From IMG/VR virus record IMGVR_UViG_3300029828_000006, positions 1-64,000 of that record: a stretch of DNA of 64,000 bases, one strand, 5' to 3'. Source of the stretch: a virus. Its lineage: Duplodnaviria; Heunggongvirae; Uroviricota; Caudoviricetes. The position numbers and the translations under genes were made by a program. The first letter of the stretch is position 1, and the number at the start of each line of letters is the position of its first letter. Positions 4,551-29,384 of the stretch are shown here, in pieces. Under the pieces are notes generated by a model, which was not told where the DNA came from, did not search any database, and saw nothing but the letters and a program-made list of their open reading frames with translations.

Positions 4551-5213
4551 TCACTCCACTACAAACCAGTCACATGCCAGTAAGTCGCCTACAGAAGGAA
4601 CCCACGGAACAACTACACCTTGTGCATTTTTTAAGGCGAAATAAGCACCATACGGAACGAGGTCGCCGGGGAAATATCCCTTAATGGCTTCCATTCGTGC
4701 CGGGTACTGTCCTTCAGGAACCAGCCAGCAGAATTGGTTTTCACCGTTCCACCCGCGTCGAGCAACTTTCTTTCCTTCCTTCAGCCACATCAGCGCGTCA
4801 GAAAAGTCGGCTGCTTCAAGGTCGATTTCTTCTTGCTGGGTGGTGATGCCACCAGCAGAAATAGTTACGCTTCCGGAAATATTAATGTTCACGCCGTTGT
4901 CATCCGTAATGATGACCGTGGTCCCATTTTCGGAGGTGTCGTTAACCCGGCTATAGCATTTTTCAAATGCTTTCTCTGGCACATAGACCGGATAGCCATT
5001 TTCAGCAGTGACGAGATATCCTCCTATTTGCGGTCGGAATCTTTCCAAGAACACACCATCAACACGAAGCGTCATTCCTTTTGGCTCAACGACTTCGATA
5101 CTGCCCAAAATGGGCGCATCAGTTTCGCCGACAATAACAATATCTTTGATTTTCGATGCCCGAATGATGCTGTGGCTTTTGTATTTGGGGAACACCTGAA
5201 AAGTGCTAGCCAT
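4551..5213 (-). CDS. two-domain protein with C-terminal DUF2829 (Tad2-like) domain
   Basis: C-terminal FSDALMWLKEGKKVARRGWNG...VVPWVPSVGDLLACDWFVVE matches recalled DUF2829 signature. Confidence 0.5.
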   Translation of the reverse strand: MASTFQVFPKYKSHSIIRASKIKDIVIVGETDAPILGSIEVVEPKGMTLRVDGVFLERFRPQIGGYLVTAENGYPVYVPEKAFEKCYSRVNDTSENGTTVIITDDNGVNINISGSVTISAGGITTQQEEIDLEAADFSDALMWLKEGKKVARRGWNGENQFCWLVPEGQYPARMEAIKGYFPGDLVPYGAYFALKNAQGVVVPWVPSVGDLLACDWFVVE

Positions 5214-5227
5214 AATCTTTCCTCTAC

Positions 5228-5722
5228 TTAAAACTTTTCGTACTGAAGCGGTGTACGCTTGATTTCAACGCGGTCTTCCGATGTACTACCAAAGCCACCA
5301 GCACCTCGCTCTGTTTCATCGAGTTCATCAACTTCTACCAGCGATACCGGTTCAACACGCTCAAAAATGCCTTGCATGACAGCCATTCCAGGCTTGAGGC
5401 AAATGCCTTCCCCGCCGGGATCAGCAATCAGTTTTGCCATGATTTCACCGCGATAATCGGAGTCGATAATTCCTACGCAGTTAGCCAGGCGAGTATGTTT
5501 TTTGCAGCCCAATCCGGATCGTGGATAGAGTTTCAGACACCAGCCGGGCGGGATCTCCATAGCCAGTCCGGTATACACCCACCAGCTTGAGGAAATTGCA
5601 CCATTGCTATCGACGCATGGTTTTATTTCAACAGCCTCAAAATCCATCGCCGCCGATCCGGAGGTGGCATAAGCTGGAAGTTTTGCTGCCGGATGTAGGC
5701 GTTTCACTTTTACGTAAATCAT
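5228..5722 (-). CDS. dut: dUTPase (trimeric Dut family)
   Basis: Five Dut motifs visible: ATSGSAAMD, YPRSGLG, GIIDSDYRGE, MQGIFE, RGAGGFGSTS. Confidence 0.75.
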   Translation of the reverse strand: MIYVKVKRLHPAAKLPAYATSGSAAMDFEAVEIKPCVDSNGAISSSWWVYTGLAMEIPPGWCLKLYPRSGLGCKKHTRLANCVGIIDSDYRGEIMAKLIADPGGEGICLKPGMAVMQGIFERVEPVSLVEVDELDETERGAGGFGSTSEDRVEIKRTPLQYEKF

Positions 5723-6609: not shown

Positions 6610-7638
6610 TTACGAATCCATCAGGCGGCTATTAGCCCCCACAGACACGCCGCCACGGCGAAGATACCGCATAAGTGTTTCCGGTTTCTTCCAGGTTCCT
6701 TCCTGCATGATCTCCACCATAGACACCTGCTTTTCAGCCATATCAATAGCGGCCCCGACGCGTGCACTATGCCCGGTCCACGTCCGGTATCTTCCTTTGT
6801 TTGGCGTAGCATCTCTTTTATTCAGCAACACCCAGGCGTCGCTGAATATTTTCTCCATTGCAGGTGCAGTAAGGGGCGTTATCGTGATCCTGGCCTTATT
6901 GCTACGGTGTATCGGCGGGAACAGCACTGCGTCAGGATGTTCGCGAAGCCCGGAAACATCCAGCCAGTCATTCAGCACAGCGGTAGTGCGACGGGAAAGC
7001 ACCTTATCAAGCCCGGCGGCGGTCGTTATTGTCTTCGTGTGTGAAATATGTAGCGTGACAGTGTCACCTGTTTGGTCCAGATCTCCTACACGAATACGCG
7101 AGATTTCCGACATACGCATCAGCGTATTGTATGCAACAAAGAGAAAAGCCCGGTTGCGCAGGTCCACCAGCCGTTCTGACCTGGACAACAGGACGTCGAG
7201 CAGTTTCAGATCGTCCCACCGCAGCGGTATAGCCTGGCCTGTTCGTTCGCCTTTTTCCGTTGCCGCTTCACGCCGGATGCGCCGCATAGCCAGAGAAACA
7301 CTTTTATCATCCGAAAGTGGCGGAAGGCCACAATGCGAAAGCAGCATGTTAAGCATGGCGTAGTGCTTATCAATGGTGGTCGAAGCCAGATCAGCATCAT
7401 GCAGCTGAAGAAAATACTCGCGGGCCATCTCTGGTGAGATCGGGAACCAGGCGAGCTGGCGAGCGTGACACCATCTCGCCCAGGAGTGAAACACTAACCG
7501 GAGATCGCGCAAAGTATTCGGCGCATAAGCCCCCTGGTCATTCATGAACCGCATAAAGTTTTCTGCGGCCTCCTGGTACTCTTTGCCAATGTTGCGCAGA
7601 AAACCACCGGAGCTGCCAGAGATAATTAATTCACTCAT
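6610..7638 (-). CDS. cre: Cre-like tyrosine site-specific recombinase
   Basis: 342 aa; aligns with Cre along its length (RRIRRE, AYNTLMRMSEISRIRVGD, TGHSARVGAAIDMA, EIMQEGTW...Y); diverged from P1 Cre. Confidence 0.85.
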   Translation of the reverse strand: MSELIISGSSGGFLRNIGKEYQEAAENFMRFMNDQGAYAPNTLRDLRLVFHSWARWCHARQLAWFPISPEMAREYFLQLHDADLASTTIDKHYAMLNMLLSHCGLPPLSDDKSVSLAMRRIRREAATEKGERTGQAIPLRWDDLKLLDVLLSRSERLVDLRNRAFLFVAYNTLMRMSEISRIRVGDLDQTGDTVTLHISHTKTITTAAGLDKVLSRRTTAVLNDWLDVSGLREHPDAVLFPPIHRSNKARITITPLTAPAMEKIFSDAWVLLNKRDATPNKGRYRTWTGHSARVGAAIDMAEKQVSMVEIMQEGTWKKPETLMRYLRRGGVSVGANSRLMDS

Positions 7639-7789
7639 GAAACTATTTCACCTCTATATACAGATGACGCTACGCGAAAAATATAAAAATGACAGGGTAG
7701 CTATAAGTTAATTTTCAAAATACAACCCTTTGATTCGATGCACGTATTTTCAGTGATGTCAACACTGTTCATCTACACATGATTATAGC

Positions 7790-8032: not shown

Positions 8033-9070
8033 ATGAGTAAGAAGTCGATCGAGAAAGAGTACAAACGGTTCCTGCAAACCGCTGAACGGTGGAAAGAGCT
8101 GGTGGTCGCAAACTCTGTTTTCCATGATACCAGTTATGCTGGCGAGGAATTCCGCCATGTTGCATTAACGCATGACCAAAACATATTAGAAGAAGCTGAA
8201 AAATGTCTTGCTGAATGGAAAGCCTTCGTTGACATGTGCCGCGATGCCGACGGCAAAGCGTCGAACATTGTTGAGTCTGTATATTCTCCGATCCCATTCA
8301 TCATTGAGGACACCAATCAAAGCACGCATGTCGTTGTGCAAAGCGCTACAACAACACGTACATTTACACGTGAACAATTGCTAAAAAAATACGACAAAAT
8401 CATAAAGAAAAGCCTTAAAAATAGGGTTTTTTCTCAAATCGTAGGTGATCTTGAAGAAGAACAGCGCTTCTTTGAAGCTGAGCCTGAAGGCGAGATCTAC
8501 CGGGCGCGTAAAGAGGCATATACAGATGTTGTGCTGACAACAAACATCGAAGGCAGCAATGCCCTTTCTCGCTTTAGAGTTGGCGCACATGGTGCATTGG
8601 TTTTCGCAAGACTACCGAAGACAACGATCCCCGTTGTCAATAATGTTGGTGAACGCCGGAGCATTACAATTTATTCTGGCGTCGAATCGGTACCTTGCAG
8701 CCTTCTCGGCGATTTTAACTTATATCGTGTTCGTGACCTGGAAAAACACCAGCCAAGCTATGTTGCGAAGTCGTACATCTTAAGGAACATCGATATTCGC
8801 AATGAAAGCCTTAAGCAGAAATCCGCTAAGATGCTGGAGGATGCCGATCCGGCTATTCGCCATATCATTGAGCGTAAGATACGTACATCACGTGAAGCAA
8901 TGGCAAGGCTGGATAAAATGGATCTGGAATTGTTAGACGTAATGATGGCCTCTGGAGACGACCTGACCGGCATTAAACTGAATGAAGCTCGTAAAAAATA
9001 CGGCAAAGCAATCGAAGAACGTTACGGATACACATTCCCCCAAACGCAGTACGCCGCGAAGCTCTGGTAA
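8033..9070 (+). CDS. hypothetical protein (345 aa) at the c1 position; candidate immunity repressor
   Basis: Convergent with pacB between pacB and lox as c1 is in P1; operator-like motif 14 nt upstream; function positional only. Confidence 0.35.
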   Translation: MSKKSIEKEYKRFLQTAERWKELVVANSVFHDTSYAGEEFRHVALTHDQNILEEAEKCLAEWKAFVDMCRDADGKASNIVESVYSPIPFIIEDTNQSTHVVVQSATTTRTFTREQLLKKYDKIIKKSLKNRVFSQIVGDLEEEQRFFEAEPEGEIYRARKEAYTDVVLTTNIEGSNALSRFRVGAHGALVFARLPKTTIPVVNNVGERRSITIYSGVESVPCSLLGDFNLYRVRDLEKHQPSYVAKSYILRNIDIRNESLKQKSAKMLEDADPAIRHIIERKIRTSREAMARLDKMDLELLDVMMASGDDLTGIKLNEARKKYGKAIEERYGYTFPQTQYAAKLW

Positions 9071-13889: not shown

Positions 13890-13965
13890 TGGTGGCCCCT
13901 ACCGGACTTGAACCGGTGACCGTGCGATTATGAGTCGCCAGCTCTAACCACTGAGCTAAGGGGCC
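13890..13965 (-). tRNA. tRNA-Ile2 (anticodon CAU, lysidine type)
   Basis: 76 nt with CCA; near-identical to recalled E. coli ileX; anticodon loop CTCATAA. Confidence 0.9.
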
Positions 13966-13974
13966 AATTAGTTT

Positions 13975-14088
13975 TTATTTTCGACGCCTGAGATTCTTCG
14001 CTACTTGTTCTACTCCGTATACGATCACAAGCAGAAATAGCAAAGACCATCCAGGGTTCTTATCAATATACGTCCAAAAATCCATCAT
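13975..14088 (-). CDS. small membrane peptide (37 aa), TciC-position
   Basis: ATGATGG start overlaps upstream stop; one hydrophobic helix; below track cut-off. Confidence 0.3.
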   Translation of the reverse strand: MMDFWTYIDKNPGWSLLFLLVIVYGVEQVAKNLRRRK

Positions 14089-14249
14089 GAGTTCCTGAAC
14101 GCAGCTTTAATAATCGGCAATAGCAATACCACAGCTACTGAAACCAGTGCCCCATCAGCCAACACCGACATCACTTTGCTGGTGAAATCCACCAGCACGG
14201 ACAAAACGAGAAAACCAATGGCGCACGCAATACGCGCCTTGCCAATCAT
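14085..14249 (-). CDS. small membrane protein (54 aa), TciB-position
   Basis: Start overlaps tciA stop; two hydrophobic segments. Confidence 0.3.
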   Translation of the reverse strand: MIGKARIACAIGFLVLSVLVDFTSKVMSVLADGALVSVAVVLLLPIIKAAFRNS

Positions 14250-14683
14250 TACAGATAATCTTCCACACGAAGGCCCAAACGACGGCCTACTTCTTCCAGT
14301 ACTTTGTGTTCTGCTGGCTCGATTTCACCGTCCGCTTCTGCAATCGTCAGCATGTTAACGAATACTTCTTCCGCTTCTTTTGGATCATTTTTGATATCTT
14401 CAATTTCGCGAAGGATATTCATGCGACCAACACGGAAACCAGCTTCCAGTTGCTCAGTAAAACGGGTGATTGTTGCGGTAATTTCGTTGCCAAAATGACT
14501 TAAGCGAGGATTAGAGCGGACAAGCTGATCAAGTTTCGCTGTTTCTTCCTTTTCGATTTCACCATCTGCGGCAGACACCAACAAACAGCCACCGATAATG
14601 GCCTCCATCAGATCGCGATTCTCAACCCTTTTCAGCTCTACTTTTGCTGAAGCGACTTTCTTACCGAAAAATTTACCGAACAT
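14249..14683 (-). CDS. tciA: TerB-like protein (TciA-like)
   Basis: 144 aa with paired acidic helical repeats typical of the TerB fold. Confidence 0.6.
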   Translation of the reverse strand: MFGKFFGKKVASAKVELKRVENRDLMEAIIGGCLLVSAADGEIEKEETAKLDQLVRSNPRLSHFGNEITATITRFTEQLEAGFRVGRMNILREIEDIKNDPKEAEEVFVNMLTIAEADGEIEPAEHKVLEEVGRRLGLRVEDYL

Positions 14684-14950
14684 TGGTTATCCCTCAATAA
14701 ACATGACGTATTTATTAGGTTGCGGTGCCTGGTGCCTCCAGGTGACGTTAACCAGTTAACAATTAACGCCGGGATGTTTGACTTAACCACTAAGGAGGAT
14801 TGTTTTAACTGTTCCGCGTGCGCATAGCCGCATTCACCGCAATGGTAAGAGCACTTGGCTGGCTGGGCGGCGATGACGCCTGTACGCATTTGGTGATCCG
14901 GTTCTGCTTCCGGCATTCGCTTAATTAGCCAAATACTCTTAACGTTGCAC

Positions 14951-15037
14951 TGGCGGAGAGTAATGGAATCGAACCATCATCGCTTGCGCAATGGGACGGT
15001 TTTCAAGACCGTTTGAGCACCATGCTCCCTACTCTCC
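14951..15037 (-). tRNA. tRNA-Ser (anticodon UGA)
   Basis: 87 nt type II tRNA; acceptor GGAGAGT/ACTCTCC, anticodon loop CTTGAAA, long variable arm, CCA. Confidence 0.8.
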
Positions 15038-15139
15038 AGTGATTGTGATGGTCGGTGCTGAACTCCGACACAGGGTTGTAGCAAGCCCCGCAAAGCGCGC
15101 ACTACTGTAGTTGCGGCACATCAGCCTGTGCATTCACCA

Positions 15140-15229
15140 CAATGTTGAGAACACTGGTTGTCACGCTGCAACGCAACATTTATTCGTAGATTGGGATATG
15201 ACCCCGTTACGCCAGTGTTCTCAACGTTG
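15140..15229. repeat. long-stem hairpin (18-bp stem, 54-nt loop)
   Basis: CAATGTTGAGAACACTGG ... CCAGTGTTCTCAACGTTG, one wobble; preceded by conserved leader. Confidence 0.5.
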
Positions 15230-15370
15230 TAGTGCCGGTTACGGTTCCGGCCAGGCCTCTTCCTCAACGGGGTGTTCTCCATACGGACTACCGTTTATTG
15301 GTCGTTCCTGCGGTTTATGTTGTGAAGCCAGATGCTTATCTTCTGGTTGCTTCAAAGAGCTGCACTTCAT

Positions 15371-15438
15371 CACAACGGTAAGAGCACTCGATGCATTTAA
15401 GCCAAGCCCCATAAGGGAGAATGCCCTTACCTGTTGTG
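15371..15438. repeat. imperfect long-stem hairpin, same family
   Basis: CACAACGGTAAG ... CTTACCTGTTGTG; shares leader and GCTTGGC with next unit. Confidence 0.45.
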
Positions 15439-15566
15439 TTGTGATGACCGGTGCTGATCTCCGGCTTGCGGTTATTTCAGACTCTCACGGGCGTTTATTT
15501 GCCCCGCCGAACAGCTCTTTTCCGCAATAGCTGCAATGTCTTTCGCGCATCAGCCTGCGCATTCAT

Positions 15567-15653
15567 CACAACGGTAAGGGTACTTCGTAGGGATTCGAAC
15601 CCTCTGCCAAGCACGGCGATCTCCGACGTCGCAAAATACCCTTACCTGTTGTG
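15567..15653 (-). ncRNA. tRNA-like element lacking a D-arm
   Basis: Minus strand has canonical T-arm AGGG-TTCGAAT-CCCT and a 4-bp/9-nt hairpin inside a 16-bp stem; abuts tRNA-Thr. Confidence 0.4.
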
Positions 15654-15654
15654 T

Positions 15655-15730
15655 TGGTGCCGGTTAACGGACTCGAACCGCTGACATCCTGCTTACAAGG
15701 CAGGCGCTCTACCAACTGAGCTAAACCGGC
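15655..15730 (-). tRNA. tRNA-Thr (anticodon UGU)
   Basis: 76 nt; acceptor GCCGGTT/AACCGGC, anticodon loop CTTGTAA, CCA. Confidence 0.9.
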
Positions 15731-15734
15731 AATT

Positions 15735-15821
15735 TGGTGGGGAGTGATGGAGTCGAACCACCCGAGTCGCAATGACAGTAGATTTACAGTCTACCCCGCT
15801 ACCCCTACGGACTAACTCCCC
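15735..15821 (-). tRNA. tRNA-Tyr (anticodon GUA)
   Basis: 87 nt type II; anticodon arm AGACTGTAAATCT as in E. coli tRNA-Tyr; CCA. Confidence 0.85.
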
Positions 15822-15826
15822 TGAAT

Positions 15827-15903
15827 TGGCGATGGTGGGTGGATTCGAACCACCGACCGACAGCTTAGAAGGCTGCTGCTCTATCCTACTGAGCTACACC
15901 ACC
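15827..15903 (-). tRNA. tRNA-Arg (anticodon UCU)
   Basis: 77 nt; anticodon loop CTTCTAA; CCA. Confidence 0.85.
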
Positions 15904-27810: not shown

Positions 27811-27836
27811 AAAAAGCCCCGGCCAGGCCGGGGCAT
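27811..27836. terminator. GC-rich hairpin terminator
   Basis: GCCCCGGCC/GGCCGGGGC stem after A-run; between convergent genes. Confidence 0.5.
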
Positions 27837-27842
27837 CACGCT

Positions 27843-28043
27843 TCAAGTCACGATCCAATCATTACCGACTATATCAGCCGTCGATAAATCAACTTCCCGG
27901 ATCTGGAGTCCATTAATACAAAACCATCCGGTAGTAGAGTAATTATCAGGCCAGGCCCATACACCAACACTCCATACTTTACGGCGGCACACTTCAGCCT
28001 GTCCTTCCCTGATTTTTTTTACCGCCTGCATGATGTCCATCAC
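27843..28043 (-). CDS. stand-alone DUF2829 (Tad2-like) protein (66 aa)
   Basis: AVKKIREGQAEVCRRKVW ... ADIVGNDWIV matches DUF2829 pattern. Confidence 0.45.
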   Translation of the reverse strand: MMDIMQAVKKIREGQAEVCRRKVWSVGVWAWPDNYSTTGWFCINGLQIREVDLSTADIVGNDWIVT

Positions 28044-28747
28044 TCACCTCCCCAACCGATCACCTGGAATTGCCCCATTTTGGGGTGATACCAGCGTTTT
28101 CCTCGGTGTTCAGCCTCCGACATCATCCGGTTAAAAGCATTCATGAAGGGAGATAAGGCCACGATTGAACGACGCGACAATACCCCCTCTGGAGTTAAAA
28201 ACTCATGCGTATCTGTGGGGATCCGGTAAGCGTTGACCAGGTTGCGGCATTTGGCTTCGGTCAGGCCGCATTTTGCCGCCAGCTGGCGGTAGCCAATGTA
28301 ACCTTCCGGCATGTTGCCCTTCTTGATTTGCTCGACGGTTTCTACCACTTGGCTAACCTTTGACTCAACAACATGAAGCCGCTTTTGCTGCTGAACTGCA
28401 TTTGCAGCCATTGCGGCGATCATCTCTATTTCGGTCAACGGCTGGCGTGCTTGTTCTTCCAGTTCGCGCCAGCGGTCCACCAGCCGGGCGGTGAATTCGG
28501 GAGAGAGCTGCGCAACGACAATAATGCTGTCTCGTTTGCCTTGCTCGCCTTCGAAGACGTAAGCCTCGACACTACGGCGTAGTCCTAAGTTATTGATTTT
28601 TTCGAAAACCTGCAATGCAGGAAGTTGAATAACTCCAGATTTAGCCAGGCGCTCTATTGATATTTTTACGTTATCTGGACGACTTCCCACCAGCTCCGCG
28701 ATCTCAATGCTGGTCATTGATGGCTTTTCAAGAATGCAGATATCCAT
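28040..28747 (-). CDS. Rha-family phage regulatory protein / antirepressor-like
   Basis: N-terminal MTSIEIAELVGSRPDNVKISIERL typical of Rha/antirepressor DNA-binding domain. Confidence 0.55.
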   Translation of the reverse strand: MDICILEKPSMTSIEIAELVGSRPDNVKISIERLAKSGVIQLPALQVFEKINNLGLRRSVEAYVFEGEQGKRDSIIVVAQLSPEFTARLVDRWRELEEQARQPLTEIEMIAAMAANAVQQQKRLHVVESKVSQVVETVEQIKKGNMPEGYIGYRQLAAKCGLTEAKCRNLVNAYRIPTDTHEFLTPEGVLSRRSIVALSPFMNAFNRMMSEAEHRGKRWYHPKMGQFQVIGWGGE

Positions 28748-28971
28748 CAGTGTGCCTCCGCAATTCCGGGATTGGTAATATTGCGATACCAGGGATTAGT
28801 GTTTGGTTGTGGGGAAGTAGAGAAACGACCAGTAAGAACACCATGCTGATCAGGGATCAGAGAACGGGCTTCTTTTTCGGTTGCGGCAATTGCGAAGTGA
28901 TCGCAGTGTTTTTGCAGGGAGTGGAAACGCCAGATGAATTCTGGACGTGAGCAAGGATTGGCATTAACCAT
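28747..28971 (-). CDS. small protein (74 aa), Icd-position
   Basis: Overlaps start of Rha-like gene as icd overlaps ant in P1; no similarity asserted. Confidence 0.3.
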   Translation of the reverse strand: MVNANPCSRPEFIWRFHSLQKHCDHFAIAATEKEARSLIPDQHGVLTGRFSTSPQPNTNPWYRNITNPGIAEAH

Positions 28972-28974
28972 AGT

Positions 28975-29316
28975 TACGGCCTCACTAACAGGTTTAACAA
29001 CCTGCTACCCGCTGTCAAACAGGTGGCAGGACGTGACAGGGTTGACAGACTGGCGTTAGTGAAACCAGCAGGCCGAAGCCTCCCCATCACGCCCCACCAT
29101 AATTCGGGCGTAACGCGGTTTACGGACACAAAAATACCGCAATATCGGAAATCTGCGGTTGTCCGCACTAACATTCAGGCTGTCAAACCTGGTCGCAGAA
29201 TTTGCTACGACGGCATGAATATAAGCCTGAAAACATGGAAGATCAACTAAAAATTTCAGCAATGGATGACTTCAGTCGATGATGCAGATCATACATTCCG
29301 ATTTAGAAACAGCAAA
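28975..29316 (-). promoter_or_regulatory. structured leader with complementary 8-10 nt elements (candidate antisense-RNA control region)
   Basis: GCTGTCAAAC at 29011 and 29179 and its complement GTTGACAG at 29041, downstream of operator-like motif. Confidence 0.25.
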
Positions 29317-29332
29317 TTAATTTTCTAACACA
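29317..29332 (-). promoter_or_regulatory. conserved motif (rc TGTGTTAGAAAATTAA)
   Basis: Head of the leader preceding the small-ORF/Rha-like operon. Confidence 0.45.
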
Positions 29333-29384
29333 GATTATCGAGCGAGCATTTTCCGATCATTGGGATGTTTTGTAGACACACAGG

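What the first reader, a model, noticed from the sequence alone, without database searches (positions are those of the whole stretch)
27843..29332. immI-like module: motif, structured leader, small ORF, Rha-like antirepressor, DUF2829
The layout recalls P1 c4-icd-ant. The 340-nt leader carries two copies of GCTGTCAAAC and one of its complement, which could form alternative pairings like the c4 antisense elements. The 74-aa ORF overlaps the start of the Rha-like gene.
Basis: inference. Interest (0 to 1): 0.5.

Follow-up and report, generated by a model that had tools for sequence, protein, structure and literature searches.

The report
P1-type c4 antisense immunity module
This is the well-known phage P1 "immI" switch: a small antisense RNA (c4) blocks translation of a cell-division inhibitor and an antirepressor.

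Summary
All parts lie on the minus strand.

- **RNA elements.** Rfam finds a C4 antisense RNA (29104..29019, 68.8 bits) and its upstream a1/b1 target element (29224..29172, 54.4 bits).
- **Identity to P1.** The 77-nt c4 gene is 77/77 identical to phage P1 c4.
The repeated GCTGTCAAAC is the DNA complement of target sites a1 and a2. Its partial complement is the a' bulge of c4.
- **Second site pair.** Site b2 overlaps the Shine-Dalgarno sequence of the 74-aa ORF, which is an Icd homologue (61% identical to P1 Icd).
- **Covariation.** In 16 distinct relatives, a1/a'/a2 and b1/b'/b2 change together. Pairing is kept in 91-100% of cases, against 32-53% in shifted controls.
- **Downstream genes.** P1 ant1/ant2 are replaced by a Rha/Roi-type protein and a 65-66-aa ORF. 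Both are joined to the upstream gene by TGATG stop/start overlaps.
- **The small ORF.** In relatives it is fused to the Roi-like protein. Its DUF2829/Tad2 label is unproven.
- **Origin.** The window is 100% identical to E. coli plasmid CP088384.1 and 95% identical to phage D6. A published paper already reports a c4-icd-antirepressor region related to immI in a D6-like Salmonella plasmid prophage.

Antirepressor activity of the Roi-like protein is inferred, not shown. Novelty is low.

The parts
29314..29331 (+). Candidate operator of the D6-type C1-like repressor (AAATTAATTTTCTAACAC). It occupies the position of P1 Op51, upstream of the c4 operon.
   Evidence: The core TTTCTAACAC occurs 6 times exactly and 4 more times with one mismatch in the window. 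Nine of the 10 sites are intergenic. Sites lie upstream of the c1-like, lpa-like, repL-like and c4 genes. The motif is present in 16 of 17 Roi-type loci, whereas 59 of 59 P1 ant-type loci carry the P1 operator instead. Its function is inferred.
29288..29315 (-). Candidate upstream promoter, analogous to P1 P51a/P2c4 (TTGCTG-16-TATGAT), abutting the operator.
   Evidence: Read directly from the sequence. The -35 hexamer is weak and the consensus scan did not pick it up. Inferred only.
29218..29246 (-). Promoter homologous to P1 P51b/P1c4 (TTGATC-17-TATATT).
   Evidence: Found by the consensus scan. It aligns with P1's annotated P1c4 hexamers.
29172..29224 (-). c4-a1b1 element. Target site a1 (UUGACAG) is at 29186..29180. 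Site b1 (GUUAGUGC) is at 29172..29165.
   Evidence: Rfam RF03163, 54.4 bits against a gathering score of 46.7. The positions map onto the P1 annotation. Covariation with a'/b' is shown.
29022..29098 (-). C4 antisense RNA, 77 nt. The b' loop UCACUAAC and the a' bulge CUGUCAA carry the recognition sequences. The 3' end is ...GCCACC.
   Evidence: Rfam RF01695, 68.8 bits against 45, at 29104..29019. The gene is 77/77 identical to P1 c4. It folds at -42 kcal/mol, z = -4.55. The stems covary.
29012..29018 (-). Target site a2 (UUGACAG).
   Evidence: Maps to P1's annotated a2. The a':a2 helix is 100% paired in 16 distinct leaders, with 3 of 7 pairs compensatory.
28980..28989 (-). Target site b2 (GUUAGUGA, 28989..28982) overlapping the icd Shine-Dalgarno sequence GUGAGG (28985..28980).
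   Evidence: Maps to P1's annotated b2. The sequence was read. The b':b2 helix is 92% paired, with 6 of 8 pairs compensatory.
28747..28971 (-). icd homologue, 74 aa: cell-division inhibitor and leader cistron.
   Evidence: 61% identical to P1 Icd, E = 5e-27. NCBIfam phage_ICD_like scores 40.3 bits against a cut-off of 25. PHROG 1426.
28040..28747 (-). Rha/Roi-type putative antirepressor, 235 aa, replacing P1 ant1/ant2.
   Evidence: PHROG 63 'anti-repressor Ant', 2.7e-47. Pfam HTH_24 passes; Phage_pRha is below threshold. No similarity to P1 Ant1 or KilA. The N-terminal part is about 91% identical in DNA to roi of lambdoid phages. The D6 record annotates it 'anti-repressor, similar to HK97 Roi'. 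A TGATG overlap joins it to icd.
27843..28040 (-). Small ORF: 65 aa from the ATG, or 66 aa from the GTG at 28043. It is D6 orf17, the split-off C-terminal module of the Roi-like protein. A Tad2/DUF2829-like fold is possible but not established.
   Evidence: PHROG 7385, 1.5e-48. It is fused to the Roi-like protein in L009 and P0005. A TGATG overlap and a GGAGG Shine-Dalgarno sequence precede it. Tad2-like evidence is sub-threshold throughout; the fold search was uninformative.
27816..27834 (-). Intrinsic terminator that ends the operon. It is a shared hairpin with the convergent CHAP-domain gene.
   Evidence: The scan finds an 8-bp all-GC stem followed by TTTTTT.

Best explanation
The region is a P1-type immI operon on the minus strand of a D6-like phage-plasmid.

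**Proposed sequence of events**
1. A promoter homologous to P1 P51b (29246..29218) transcribes the whole unit. The order is the a1/b1 hairpins, c4, a2, b2 with the Shine-Dalgarno sequence, icd, the Roi-like gene, the 65-aa ORF and the terminator.
2. The 77-nt C4 RNA is cut out of this transcript. In P1 the cut is made by RNase P.
3. Its b' loop (UCACUAAC) and a' bulge (CUGUCAA) pair with b2 and a2.
4. This pairing covers the icd ribosome-binding site.
5. Without icd translation, the translationally coupled downstream genes stay silent. In P1 this is reinforced by premature, Rho-dependent termination.
6. When target transcripts outrun C4, Icd blocks cell division and the Roi-like protein inactivates the C1-like repressor (8033..9070). 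This would happen on infection, or when an upstream repressor-controlled promoter fires. The small ORF probably acts together with the Roi-like protein.

**What is shown here**
- The RNA elements, their pairings and their covariation.
- Icd homology.
- The gene overlaps.
- Linkage between operator type and cargo type.

**What is inferred from P1**
- Processing of C4.
- Rho termination.
- Antirepressor activity.
- The upstream operator and promoter.
For: **RNA elements**
- Rfam finds C4 and c4-a1b1 above their gathering scores.
- The region is 93% identical in DNA to P1 c4/icd, and c4 is 77/77 identical to P1.
- P1's annotated a1, b1, a2, b2 sites and P1c4 promoter map base for base.
- The two-part target occurs only at these two places in the window.

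**Covariation**
- In 115 loci there are 20 distinct combinations of site sequences, and complementarity is kept in each.
- The formal count gives a1:a' 100% paired and b1:b' 90.9%.
- It gives a':a2 100% and b':b2 92.1%.
- Between 3 and 6 pairs per helix are compensatory. No shuffle out of 500 reaches the observed score, and shifted controls pair at 32-53%.

**Genes**
- Icd homology.
- TGATG overlaps with GGAGG Shine-Dalgarno sequences at both junctions.
- A terminator follows the small ORF.
- The Roi-like gene belongs to antirepressor PHROGs.

**Operator**
- The operator type upstream of c4 switches together with the antirepressor type: 59 of 59 against 16 of 17, and never both.
- The operator motif also lies upstream of the c1-like, lpa-like and repL-like genes.

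**Literature**
- The P1 mechanism is summarised in PMC8198154.
- A region related to ImmI, with c4, icd and antirepressor homologues, is reported for a D6-like plasmid prophage in PMC6799933.
Against: - No expression data: C4 processing, translational repression and Rho termination are carried over from P1.
- The Roi-like protein has no detectable similarity to P1 Ant1/Ant2 or KilA. It hits no antirepressor chain in the PDB.
- Its namesakes, HK022 Roi and Rha, are known as DNA-binding or lytic-growth proteins, not as proven antirepressors.
- The C1-like repressor matches the P1 C1 model only weakly: E = 6e-6, 25.9 bits against a cut-off of 500.
- The upstream promoter is weak by consensus and was not found by the scan.
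Confidence: 0.85

Rival explanations
1. The c4-icd riboregulator is genuine, but the Roi/Rha-like protein is not an antirepressor. It would be a DNA-binding early regulator or a host-directed protein, like HK022 Roi, P22 Rha or KilA. The c4 switch would then gate a lytic-growth or host-shutoff function rather than inactivation of C1.
For: - There is an N-terminal winged-helix domain: HTH_24 passes and Phage_pRha is weak.
- The DNA is about 91% identical to roi of lambdoid phages.
- HK022 Roi is described only as implicated in lytic growth.
- There is no similarity to P1 Ant1/2.
Against: - It occupies exactly the ant slot behind icd, with the same stop/start coupling.
- Its best family matches are antirepressor PHROGs.
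- Its presence tracks the operator type of the resident repressor, as expected for a cognate antirepressor-repressor pair.
- L057 carries it in tandem with an ant1 homologue.
Confidence: 0.2
2. The 65-aa ORF is an independent anti-defence gene, a minimal Tad2/DUF2829-type sponge for Thoeris signalling molecules. It would be placed under c4 control so that it is made only at infection or induction.
For: - The Pfam Tad2-like model aligns end to end, but weakly (E = 0.053).
- The remote relative P0007 scores 23.9 bits against a cut-off of 25.
- A profile comparison with the window's genuine Tad2-like domain is collinear and shares the motifs EG..RR..W...DW.V (E = 0.015).
Against: - Every score is below threshold, and hhalign gives a probability of 3%.
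- The domain lacks the central insert of canonical Tad2.
- The AlphaFold model has pLDDT 67.8, and no PDB match has E < 1.
- In L009 and P0005 the domain is the C-terminus of the Roi-like protein, which points to a role inside the antirepressor.
- The plasmid already has a canonical Tad2-like protein at 4551..5213.
Confidence: 0.07
3. The leader is an ordinary 5' UTR and the repeated 10-mer is a protein-binding site or a chance repeat.
For: With one mismatch allowed, the 10-mer is not strongly enriched over the whole window: 11 matches against 4.5 expected.
Against: - Two Rfam families score above their gathering thresholds.
- The c4 gene is identical to P1 c4.
- Three-way compensatory changes occur in relatives.
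Confidence: 0.01

Closest known systems
Phage P1 / P7 immI operon (c4 - icd - ant1/ant2), Rfam C4 (RF01695) and c4-a1b1 (RF03163)
   Same: - The c4 RNA is identical (77/77).
- The a1, b1, a2 and b2 sites sit at the same positions, and b2 overlaps the icd Shine-Dalgarno sequence.
- The P51b-type promoter is homologous.
- There is an Icd homologue (61% identical).
- The icd stop overlaps the start of the next gene.
- A repressor operator lies upstream of the operon.
   Different: - The cargo behind icd is a Rha/Roi-type protein plus a 65-aa ORF, not Ant1/Ant2 (no detectable similarity).
- There is no kilA-repL downstream; a repL-like gene lies upstream on the same strand.
- The upstream operator is a different sequence (AAATTAATTTTCTAACAC, not ATTGCTCTAATAAATTT).
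- The P51a region is not homologous.
Phage D6 (NC_050154) orf17-orf19 region and D6-like plasmid prophages (for example pYU39_89, PMC6799933)
   Same: - Gene order and sequence are the same: 95% DNA identity over 1751 bp, and 100% to plasmid CP088384.1.
- The D6 record annotates the genes as Icd-like and as 'anti-repressor similar to HK97 Roi'.
- A region related to ImmI, with c4, icd and antirepressor homologues, is described for the D6-like plasmid pYU39_89.
   Different: - Phage D6 itself has a different b specificity: b' CGUAAGU, with matching b1 and b2.
- This window carries the P1 a and b specificities.
- The c4 RNA is not annotated as a feature in the D6 or plasmid records.
IsrK / C4-family riboregulators of other enterobacterial prophages (Rfam clan CL00128; RF01394 isrK)
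   Same: The same family of processed antisense RNA with a two-part loop-and-bulge address, in front of an icd-like gene. A second such module sits on the same plasmid outside the window (CP088384.1 7266..7746).
   Different: The second module has a different address (a' GUUCCAA, b' CCUUUGAC), an isrK-type upstream element and different downstream genes.

Membership tests
P1-type immI operon | A C4 antisense RNA gene with the conserved fold: a long stem, two hairpins and an internal bulge. | tested here: met
   Rfam RF01695, 68.8 bits against 45. 77/77 identical to P1 c4. MFE -42 kcal/mol, z = -4.55. The stems covary.
P1-type immI operon | Upstream a1/b1 target sites complementary to the a'/b' sequences of C4. 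| tested here: met
   Rfam RF03163, 54.4 bits against 46.7. The a1:a' helix is 7/7 paired and b1:b' 7/8. Across 16 distinct leaders pairing is 100% and 90.9%, with 3 and 6 compensatory pairs.
P1-type immI operon | Downstream a2/b2 target sites, with b2 overlapping the ribosome-binding site of icd. | tested here: met
   Site a2 is at 29018..29012. Site b2 is at 28989..28982 and overlaps GUGAGG, 8 nt before the ATG. Pairing is 100% and 92.1%, with 3 and 6 compensatory pairs.
P1-type immI operon | An icd homologue as the first cistron. | tested here: met
   61% identical to P1 Icd, E = 5e-27. NCBIfam phage_ICD_like is above its cut-off.
P1-type immI operon | The antirepressor gene is translationally coupled to icd. 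| tested here: met
   The stop and start codons overlap as TGATG, with GGAGG 8 nt upstream. Coupling itself is inferred from this arrangement.
P1-type immI operon | The antirepressor is an Ant1/Ant2 homologue. | tested here: not met
   BLASTP against P1 Ant1 gives E = 0.37, and against KilA E = 1.3. The gene is of the Rha/Roi type. The operon control region is therefore a member, but its cargo is a replacement.
P1-type immI operon | A constitutive promoter (P51b) plus a C1-operator-controlled upstream promoter (P51a/Op51). | tested here: inconclusive
   The P51b homologue is present. The P1 operator is absent from the window. A different repeated motif sits in the equivalent place, next to a weak candidate promoter. 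Binding was not tested.
P1-type immI operon | C4 is processed from the operon transcript by RNase P, and ant is repressed through Rho-dependent termination. | not testable with these tools
   Known for P1 from the literature. Here only the sequence identity of c4 and its flanks with P1 supports it.
P1-type immI operon | The product of the second gene inactivates the prophage repressor. | not testable with these tools
   Only indirect support: the position of the gene, the PHROG label and the linkage with operator type.
Tad2-like / DUF2829 (PF11195), considered for the 65-aa ORF | A match to the family profile above the gathering score. | tested here: not met
   14.5 bits against 25, E = 0.053. 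The relative P0007 scores 23.9 bits. hhalign against a genuine domain gives E = 0.015 and probability 3%.
Tad2-like / DUF2829 (PF11195), considered for the 65-aa ORF | The Tad2 fold. | tested here: inconclusive
   The AlphaFold model has pLDDT 67.8. Foldseek against the PDB finds nothing with E < 1, and the profile search of PDB sequences finds no Tad2.
Rha family (PF09669), considered for the 235-aa protein | A match to Phage_pRha above the gathering score. | tested here: inconclusive
   The window protein scores 21.9 bits against 29.9. The homologue P0005, with the same architecture, scores 36.9 bits.

The most novel reading that the evidence does not exclude
The c4 switch may be a portable riboregulator whose address can be changed. 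In 115 viral loci at least 4 a-types and about 9 b-types are combined freely, independently of the cargo and of the repressor operator.

This D6-like plasmid carries the exact P1 address and a c4 identical to P1's, although its repressor, operator and antirepressor are of the D6 type. P1 and this plasmid should therefore silence each other's antirepressor operons. That would be shared immI immunity between two different phage-plasmid lineages. The second, orthogonal C4/isrK module on the same plasmid would work in parallel.

In addition, the antirepressor here would be a two-piece Rha/Roi protein, with its small, possibly Tad2-like C-terminal module made as a separate, translationally coupled polypeptide.
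Probability: 0.45. Interest if true: 0.35.

Novelty: already known. Interest (0 to 1): 0.2.

Why it matters
The result confirms that a reader without tools can recognise a classical antisense-RNA immunity switch from sequence alone.

Biologically it adds little. The P1/P7 c4 mechanism has been known since 1990, Rfam models detect the element, and D6-like plasmids are already reported to carry c4-icd-antirepressor.

Three by-products may be useful to people working on phage-plasmid incompatibility and immunity:
- a table of reassorted a/b address types;
- a candidate operator for the D6-type repressor;
- the split or fused 65-aa module of the Roi-type antirepressor.

D6-like and P1-like plasmids are common carriers in clinical E. 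coli and Salmonella.

Tried and rejected
- **P1 C1 operator.** A search for ATTGCTCTAATAAATTT with up to 3 mismatches found none in the window, so control by a P1-type C1 is rejected.
- **Second icd/c4 copy in the window.** None was found by tblastn or blastn. The second module reported for D6-like plasmids lies outside the window.
- **Roi-like protein against P1 Ant1 and KilA.** No similarity. The PDB sequence search gave only spurious repeat-protein hits.
- **The 65-aa ORF.**
  - The word-index homologue search found 3 close relatives.
  - Full HMMER found 6 hits, one of them a spurious match to a PKD repeat protein.
  - PDB sequence and profile searches found no Tad2.
  - The AlphaFold model was of only moderate confidence, and Foldseek against the PDB was uninformative.
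- **NCBIfam.** It gave no name for the Roi-like, repL-like or 65-aa proteins.
- **Literature.** The D6 genome paper (PMC5800970) is not held, so I could not check what it says about c4 or operators.
- **Leader fold.** The minimum-energy fold of the 256-nt leader predicts a long-range helix around c4. I did not test it and do not rely on it.
Full report
**What is in the sequence**

All features of the finding lie on the minus strand. In the direction of transcription they are:

| Feature | Coordinates |
|---|---|
| Non-coding stretch | 29384..28972 |
| 74-aa ORF | 28971..28747 |
| 235-aa ORF | 28747..28040 |
| 66-aa ORF (65 aa from the ATG at 28040) | 28043..27843 |
| GC-rich hairpin with a T run | 27834..27816 |

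Both gene junctions read TGATG, so the stop and start codons share one base. Each has GGAGG 7-8 nt upstream.

GCTGTCAAAC occurs exactly twice in the window, at 29011 and 29179.

**What the leader is**

- A scan of the whole window against Rfam gave a C4 antisense RNA (RF01695) at 29104..29019 (-), 68.8 bits against a gathering score of 45.
- It also gave the 'a1, b1 targets of C4' element (RF03163) at 29224..29172 (-), 54.4 bits against 46.7.
- Window 28860..29231 is 93% identical to the c4/icd region of phage P1.
- The 77-nt c4 gene (29098..29022) is identical to P1 c4 at all 77 positions.
- Between the promoter and the icd ATG, all 14 differences from P1 lie at or upstream of 29188.

Transferring the curated P1 annotation through the alignment gives these positions:

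| Element | Coordinates | Sequence |
|---|---|---|
| a1 | 29186..29180 | UUGACAG |
| b1 | 29172..29165 | GUUAGUGC |
| a2 | 29018..29012 | UUGACAG |
| b2 | 28989..28982 | GUUAGUGA |
| Promoter (P1 P1c4/P51b) | 29246..29218 | TTGATC-17-TATATT |

Site b2 overlaps the icd Shine-Dalgarno sequence GUGAGG. The consensus scan also found this promoter.

Folded alone, c4 gives the expected shape: a long stem, a UUCG hairpin, a second hairpin whose 9-nt loop carries b' (UCACUAAC), and a 7-nt bulge that is a' (CUGUCAA). The energy is -42 kcal/mol, z = -4.55.

The two-part target TTGACAG-N(3-33)-GTTAGTG occurs nowhere else in the window.

**Covariation**

With the loci already held, 115 leaders were long enough to analyse. 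They contain 20 distinct combinations of site sequences.

- There are at least four a-types: GACAG, AGCAG, GGAAG and AGTCG.
- There are about nine b-types.
- In each combination, a1, a' and a2 change together, and so do b1, b' and b2.
- P7 differs from P1 in both a and b, and phage D6 differs from P1 only in b.

A formal count was made on 16 distinct leaders:

| Helix | Paired | Compensatory pairs |
|---|---|---|
| a1:a' | 100% | 3 of 7 |
| b1:b' | 90.9% | 6 of 7 |
| a':a2 | 100% | 3 of 7 |
| b':b2 | 92.1% | 6 of 8 |

No shuffle out of 500 reached the observed covariation score, and partners shifted by 1-3 columns paired in only 32-53% of cases. It establishes the antisense pairings without any experiment.

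**The proteins**

*74-aa ORF.* It is an Icd homologue, 61% identical to P1 Icd (E = 5e-27). NCBIfam phage_ICD_like scores above its cut-off.

*235-aa protein.*
- It has no detectable similarity to P1 Ant1 or KilA.
- It has an N-terminal winged helix. Phage_pRha is below threshold in this protein and above it in the homologue P0005.
- It matches antirepressor PHROGs strongly (PHROG 63, 2.7e-47).
- Part of its DNA is about 91% identical to roi of lambdoid Stx phages.
- The D6 record calls it 'anti-repressor, similar to HK97 Roi'.

*65-aa ORF.*
- It belongs to a very small family.
- In locus L009, directly behind c4-icd, the same domain is the C-terminus of a 313-aa Roi-like protein. The same is true of protein P0005.
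- The small ORF is therefore best read as a split-off module of the antirepressor-type protein.
- The DUF2829/Tad2 label is not established:
  - Pfam gives E = 0.053.
  - A remote relative scores 23.9 bits against a cut-off of 25.
  - hhalign against the window's own genuine Tad2-like domain gives E = 0.015 and probability 3%.
  - The model has pLDDT 67.8 and no structural match.

**Context and control**

The window is 100% identical to E. coli plasmid CP088384.1 and 95% identical to phage D6. It matches the P1 C1 model only weakly.

The P1 C1 operator is absent from the window. Instead an asymmetric motif, about AAATTAATTTTCTAACAC, is present.
- Its core occurs 6 times exactly and 4 times with one mismatch.
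- Nine of the 10 sites are intergenic.
- Sites lie upstream of four genes or operons:
  - the c1-like gene (8004);
  - an Lpa-like activator gene (12437);
  - the repL-like gene (30520);
  - the c4 operon (29322).

  P1 has annotated C1 operators upstream of c4 and of kilA-repL. From my own knowledge of P1, it also has them upstream of c1 and lpa.

Across the IMG/VR loci, the operator type upstream of c4 goes with the cargo.
- All 59 loci with P1-type ant carry the P1 operator.
- Of the 17 Roi-type loci, 16 carry the new motif.
- None carries both.

This is what is expected if the Roi-like protein is the cognate antagonist of the D6-type repressor. It remains an inference. A weak candidate promoter (TTGCTG-16-TATGAT, 29315..29288) abuts the motif, much as P51a abuts Op51 in P1.

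**Mechanism**

By homology with P1 (summarised in PMC8198154), the conserved promoter makes one transcript that contains both the antisense RNA and its targets.

Processed C4 pairs through a' and b' with a2 and b2 and hides the icd ribosome-binding site. The coupled downstream cistrons then stay off. When transcripts exceed C4, Icd halts division and the Roi-like protein, with its small partner, removes the repressor.

The elements and pairings are shown here. Processing of C4, Rho termination and antirepressor activity are carried over from P1.

**Comparison and novelty**

The control region is a full member of the P1 immI family. The cargo fails the 'Ant1/2 homologue' criterion and is a replacement.

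This arrangement is already in the D6 GenBank record. PMC6799933 reports for the D6-like plasmid pYU39_89 a region related to ImmI with homologues of c4, icd and an antirepressor, plus a second c4/icd region.

I located that second module on the same plasmid, outside the window. It has an isrK-type upstream element and a different address.

The finding is therefore correct but already known. The modest extras are the reassorting a/b address types, the fact that this D6-like plasmid carries P1's exact c4, the candidate D6-type operator, and the split or fused 65-aa module.

Noticed in passing
window 6594, 8004, 12437, 16972, 17128, 18377, 19420, 29322, 30520, 61454 (10-mer starts): An asymmetric motif of about AAATTAATTTTCTAACAC recurs in the window. 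Its core occurs 6 times exactly and 4 times with one mismatch, and 9 of the 10 sites are intergenic. Sites lie upstream of the c1-like, lpa-like, repL-like and c4 genes. It is probably the operator of the D6-type C1-like repressor. The P1 operator is absent from the window.
   Followed up: partly
L006 (CP088384.1) 7266..7746, minus strand, outside the window: The same plasmid carries a second C4-family RNA (77.1 bits) preceded by an isrK-type element (61.3 bits) and followed by an icd-like gene. Its address (a' GUUCCAA, b' CCUUUGAC) differs from the one in the window, so the two switches should be orthogonal.
   Followed up: partly
window 4551..5213 (-): A 220-aa protein has a genuine Tad2-like/DUF2829 domain at its C-terminus (Pfam 1.3e-22). 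It lies next to a gene that the phage D6 record annotates as dUTP diphosphatase (5228..5722, -). It is a candidate anti-Thoeris gene on the phage-plasmid.
   Followed up: no
L009 (IMGVR_UViG_3300013958_000038), ORF starting about 340 nt downstream of the c4 core; protein P0005: The Roi/Rha-like protein and the 65-aa domain are fused into one 313-aa polypeptide, directly behind c4-icd in L009.
   Followed up: yes
L057 (IMGVR_UViG_2579778564_000018): Here c4-icd is followed by a Roi-like gene (55% identical) and then an ant1-like gene (62% identical) in tandem. The one Roi-type locus that carries a P1-type operator upstream is probably this one, though I did not confirm which locus it is. It looks like a hybrid of the two cargo types.
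   Followed up: no
L031 (IMGVR_UViG_2529292985_000014): The Roi-like gene is deleted. Only icd and the last 23 codons of the small ORF remain behind c4.
   Followed up: no
IMG/VR loci L008-L126: The a-type and b-type addresses of c4 are combined freely: at least 4 a-types and about 9 b-types in 20 combinations. They are independent of whether the cargo is P1 ant1/2-kilA-repL or Roi-like plus the small ORF.
   Followed up: yes
window 13893..15903 (-): A cluster of four tRNA genes (Rfam 41.9-74.9 bits).
   Followed up: no
window 28960..29215 (-): The minimum-energy fold of the 256-nt leader (z = -5.55) pairs the a1 hairpin region with the hairpin between a2 and b2, enclosing c4. I did not test this long-range helix by covariation.
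   Followed up: no
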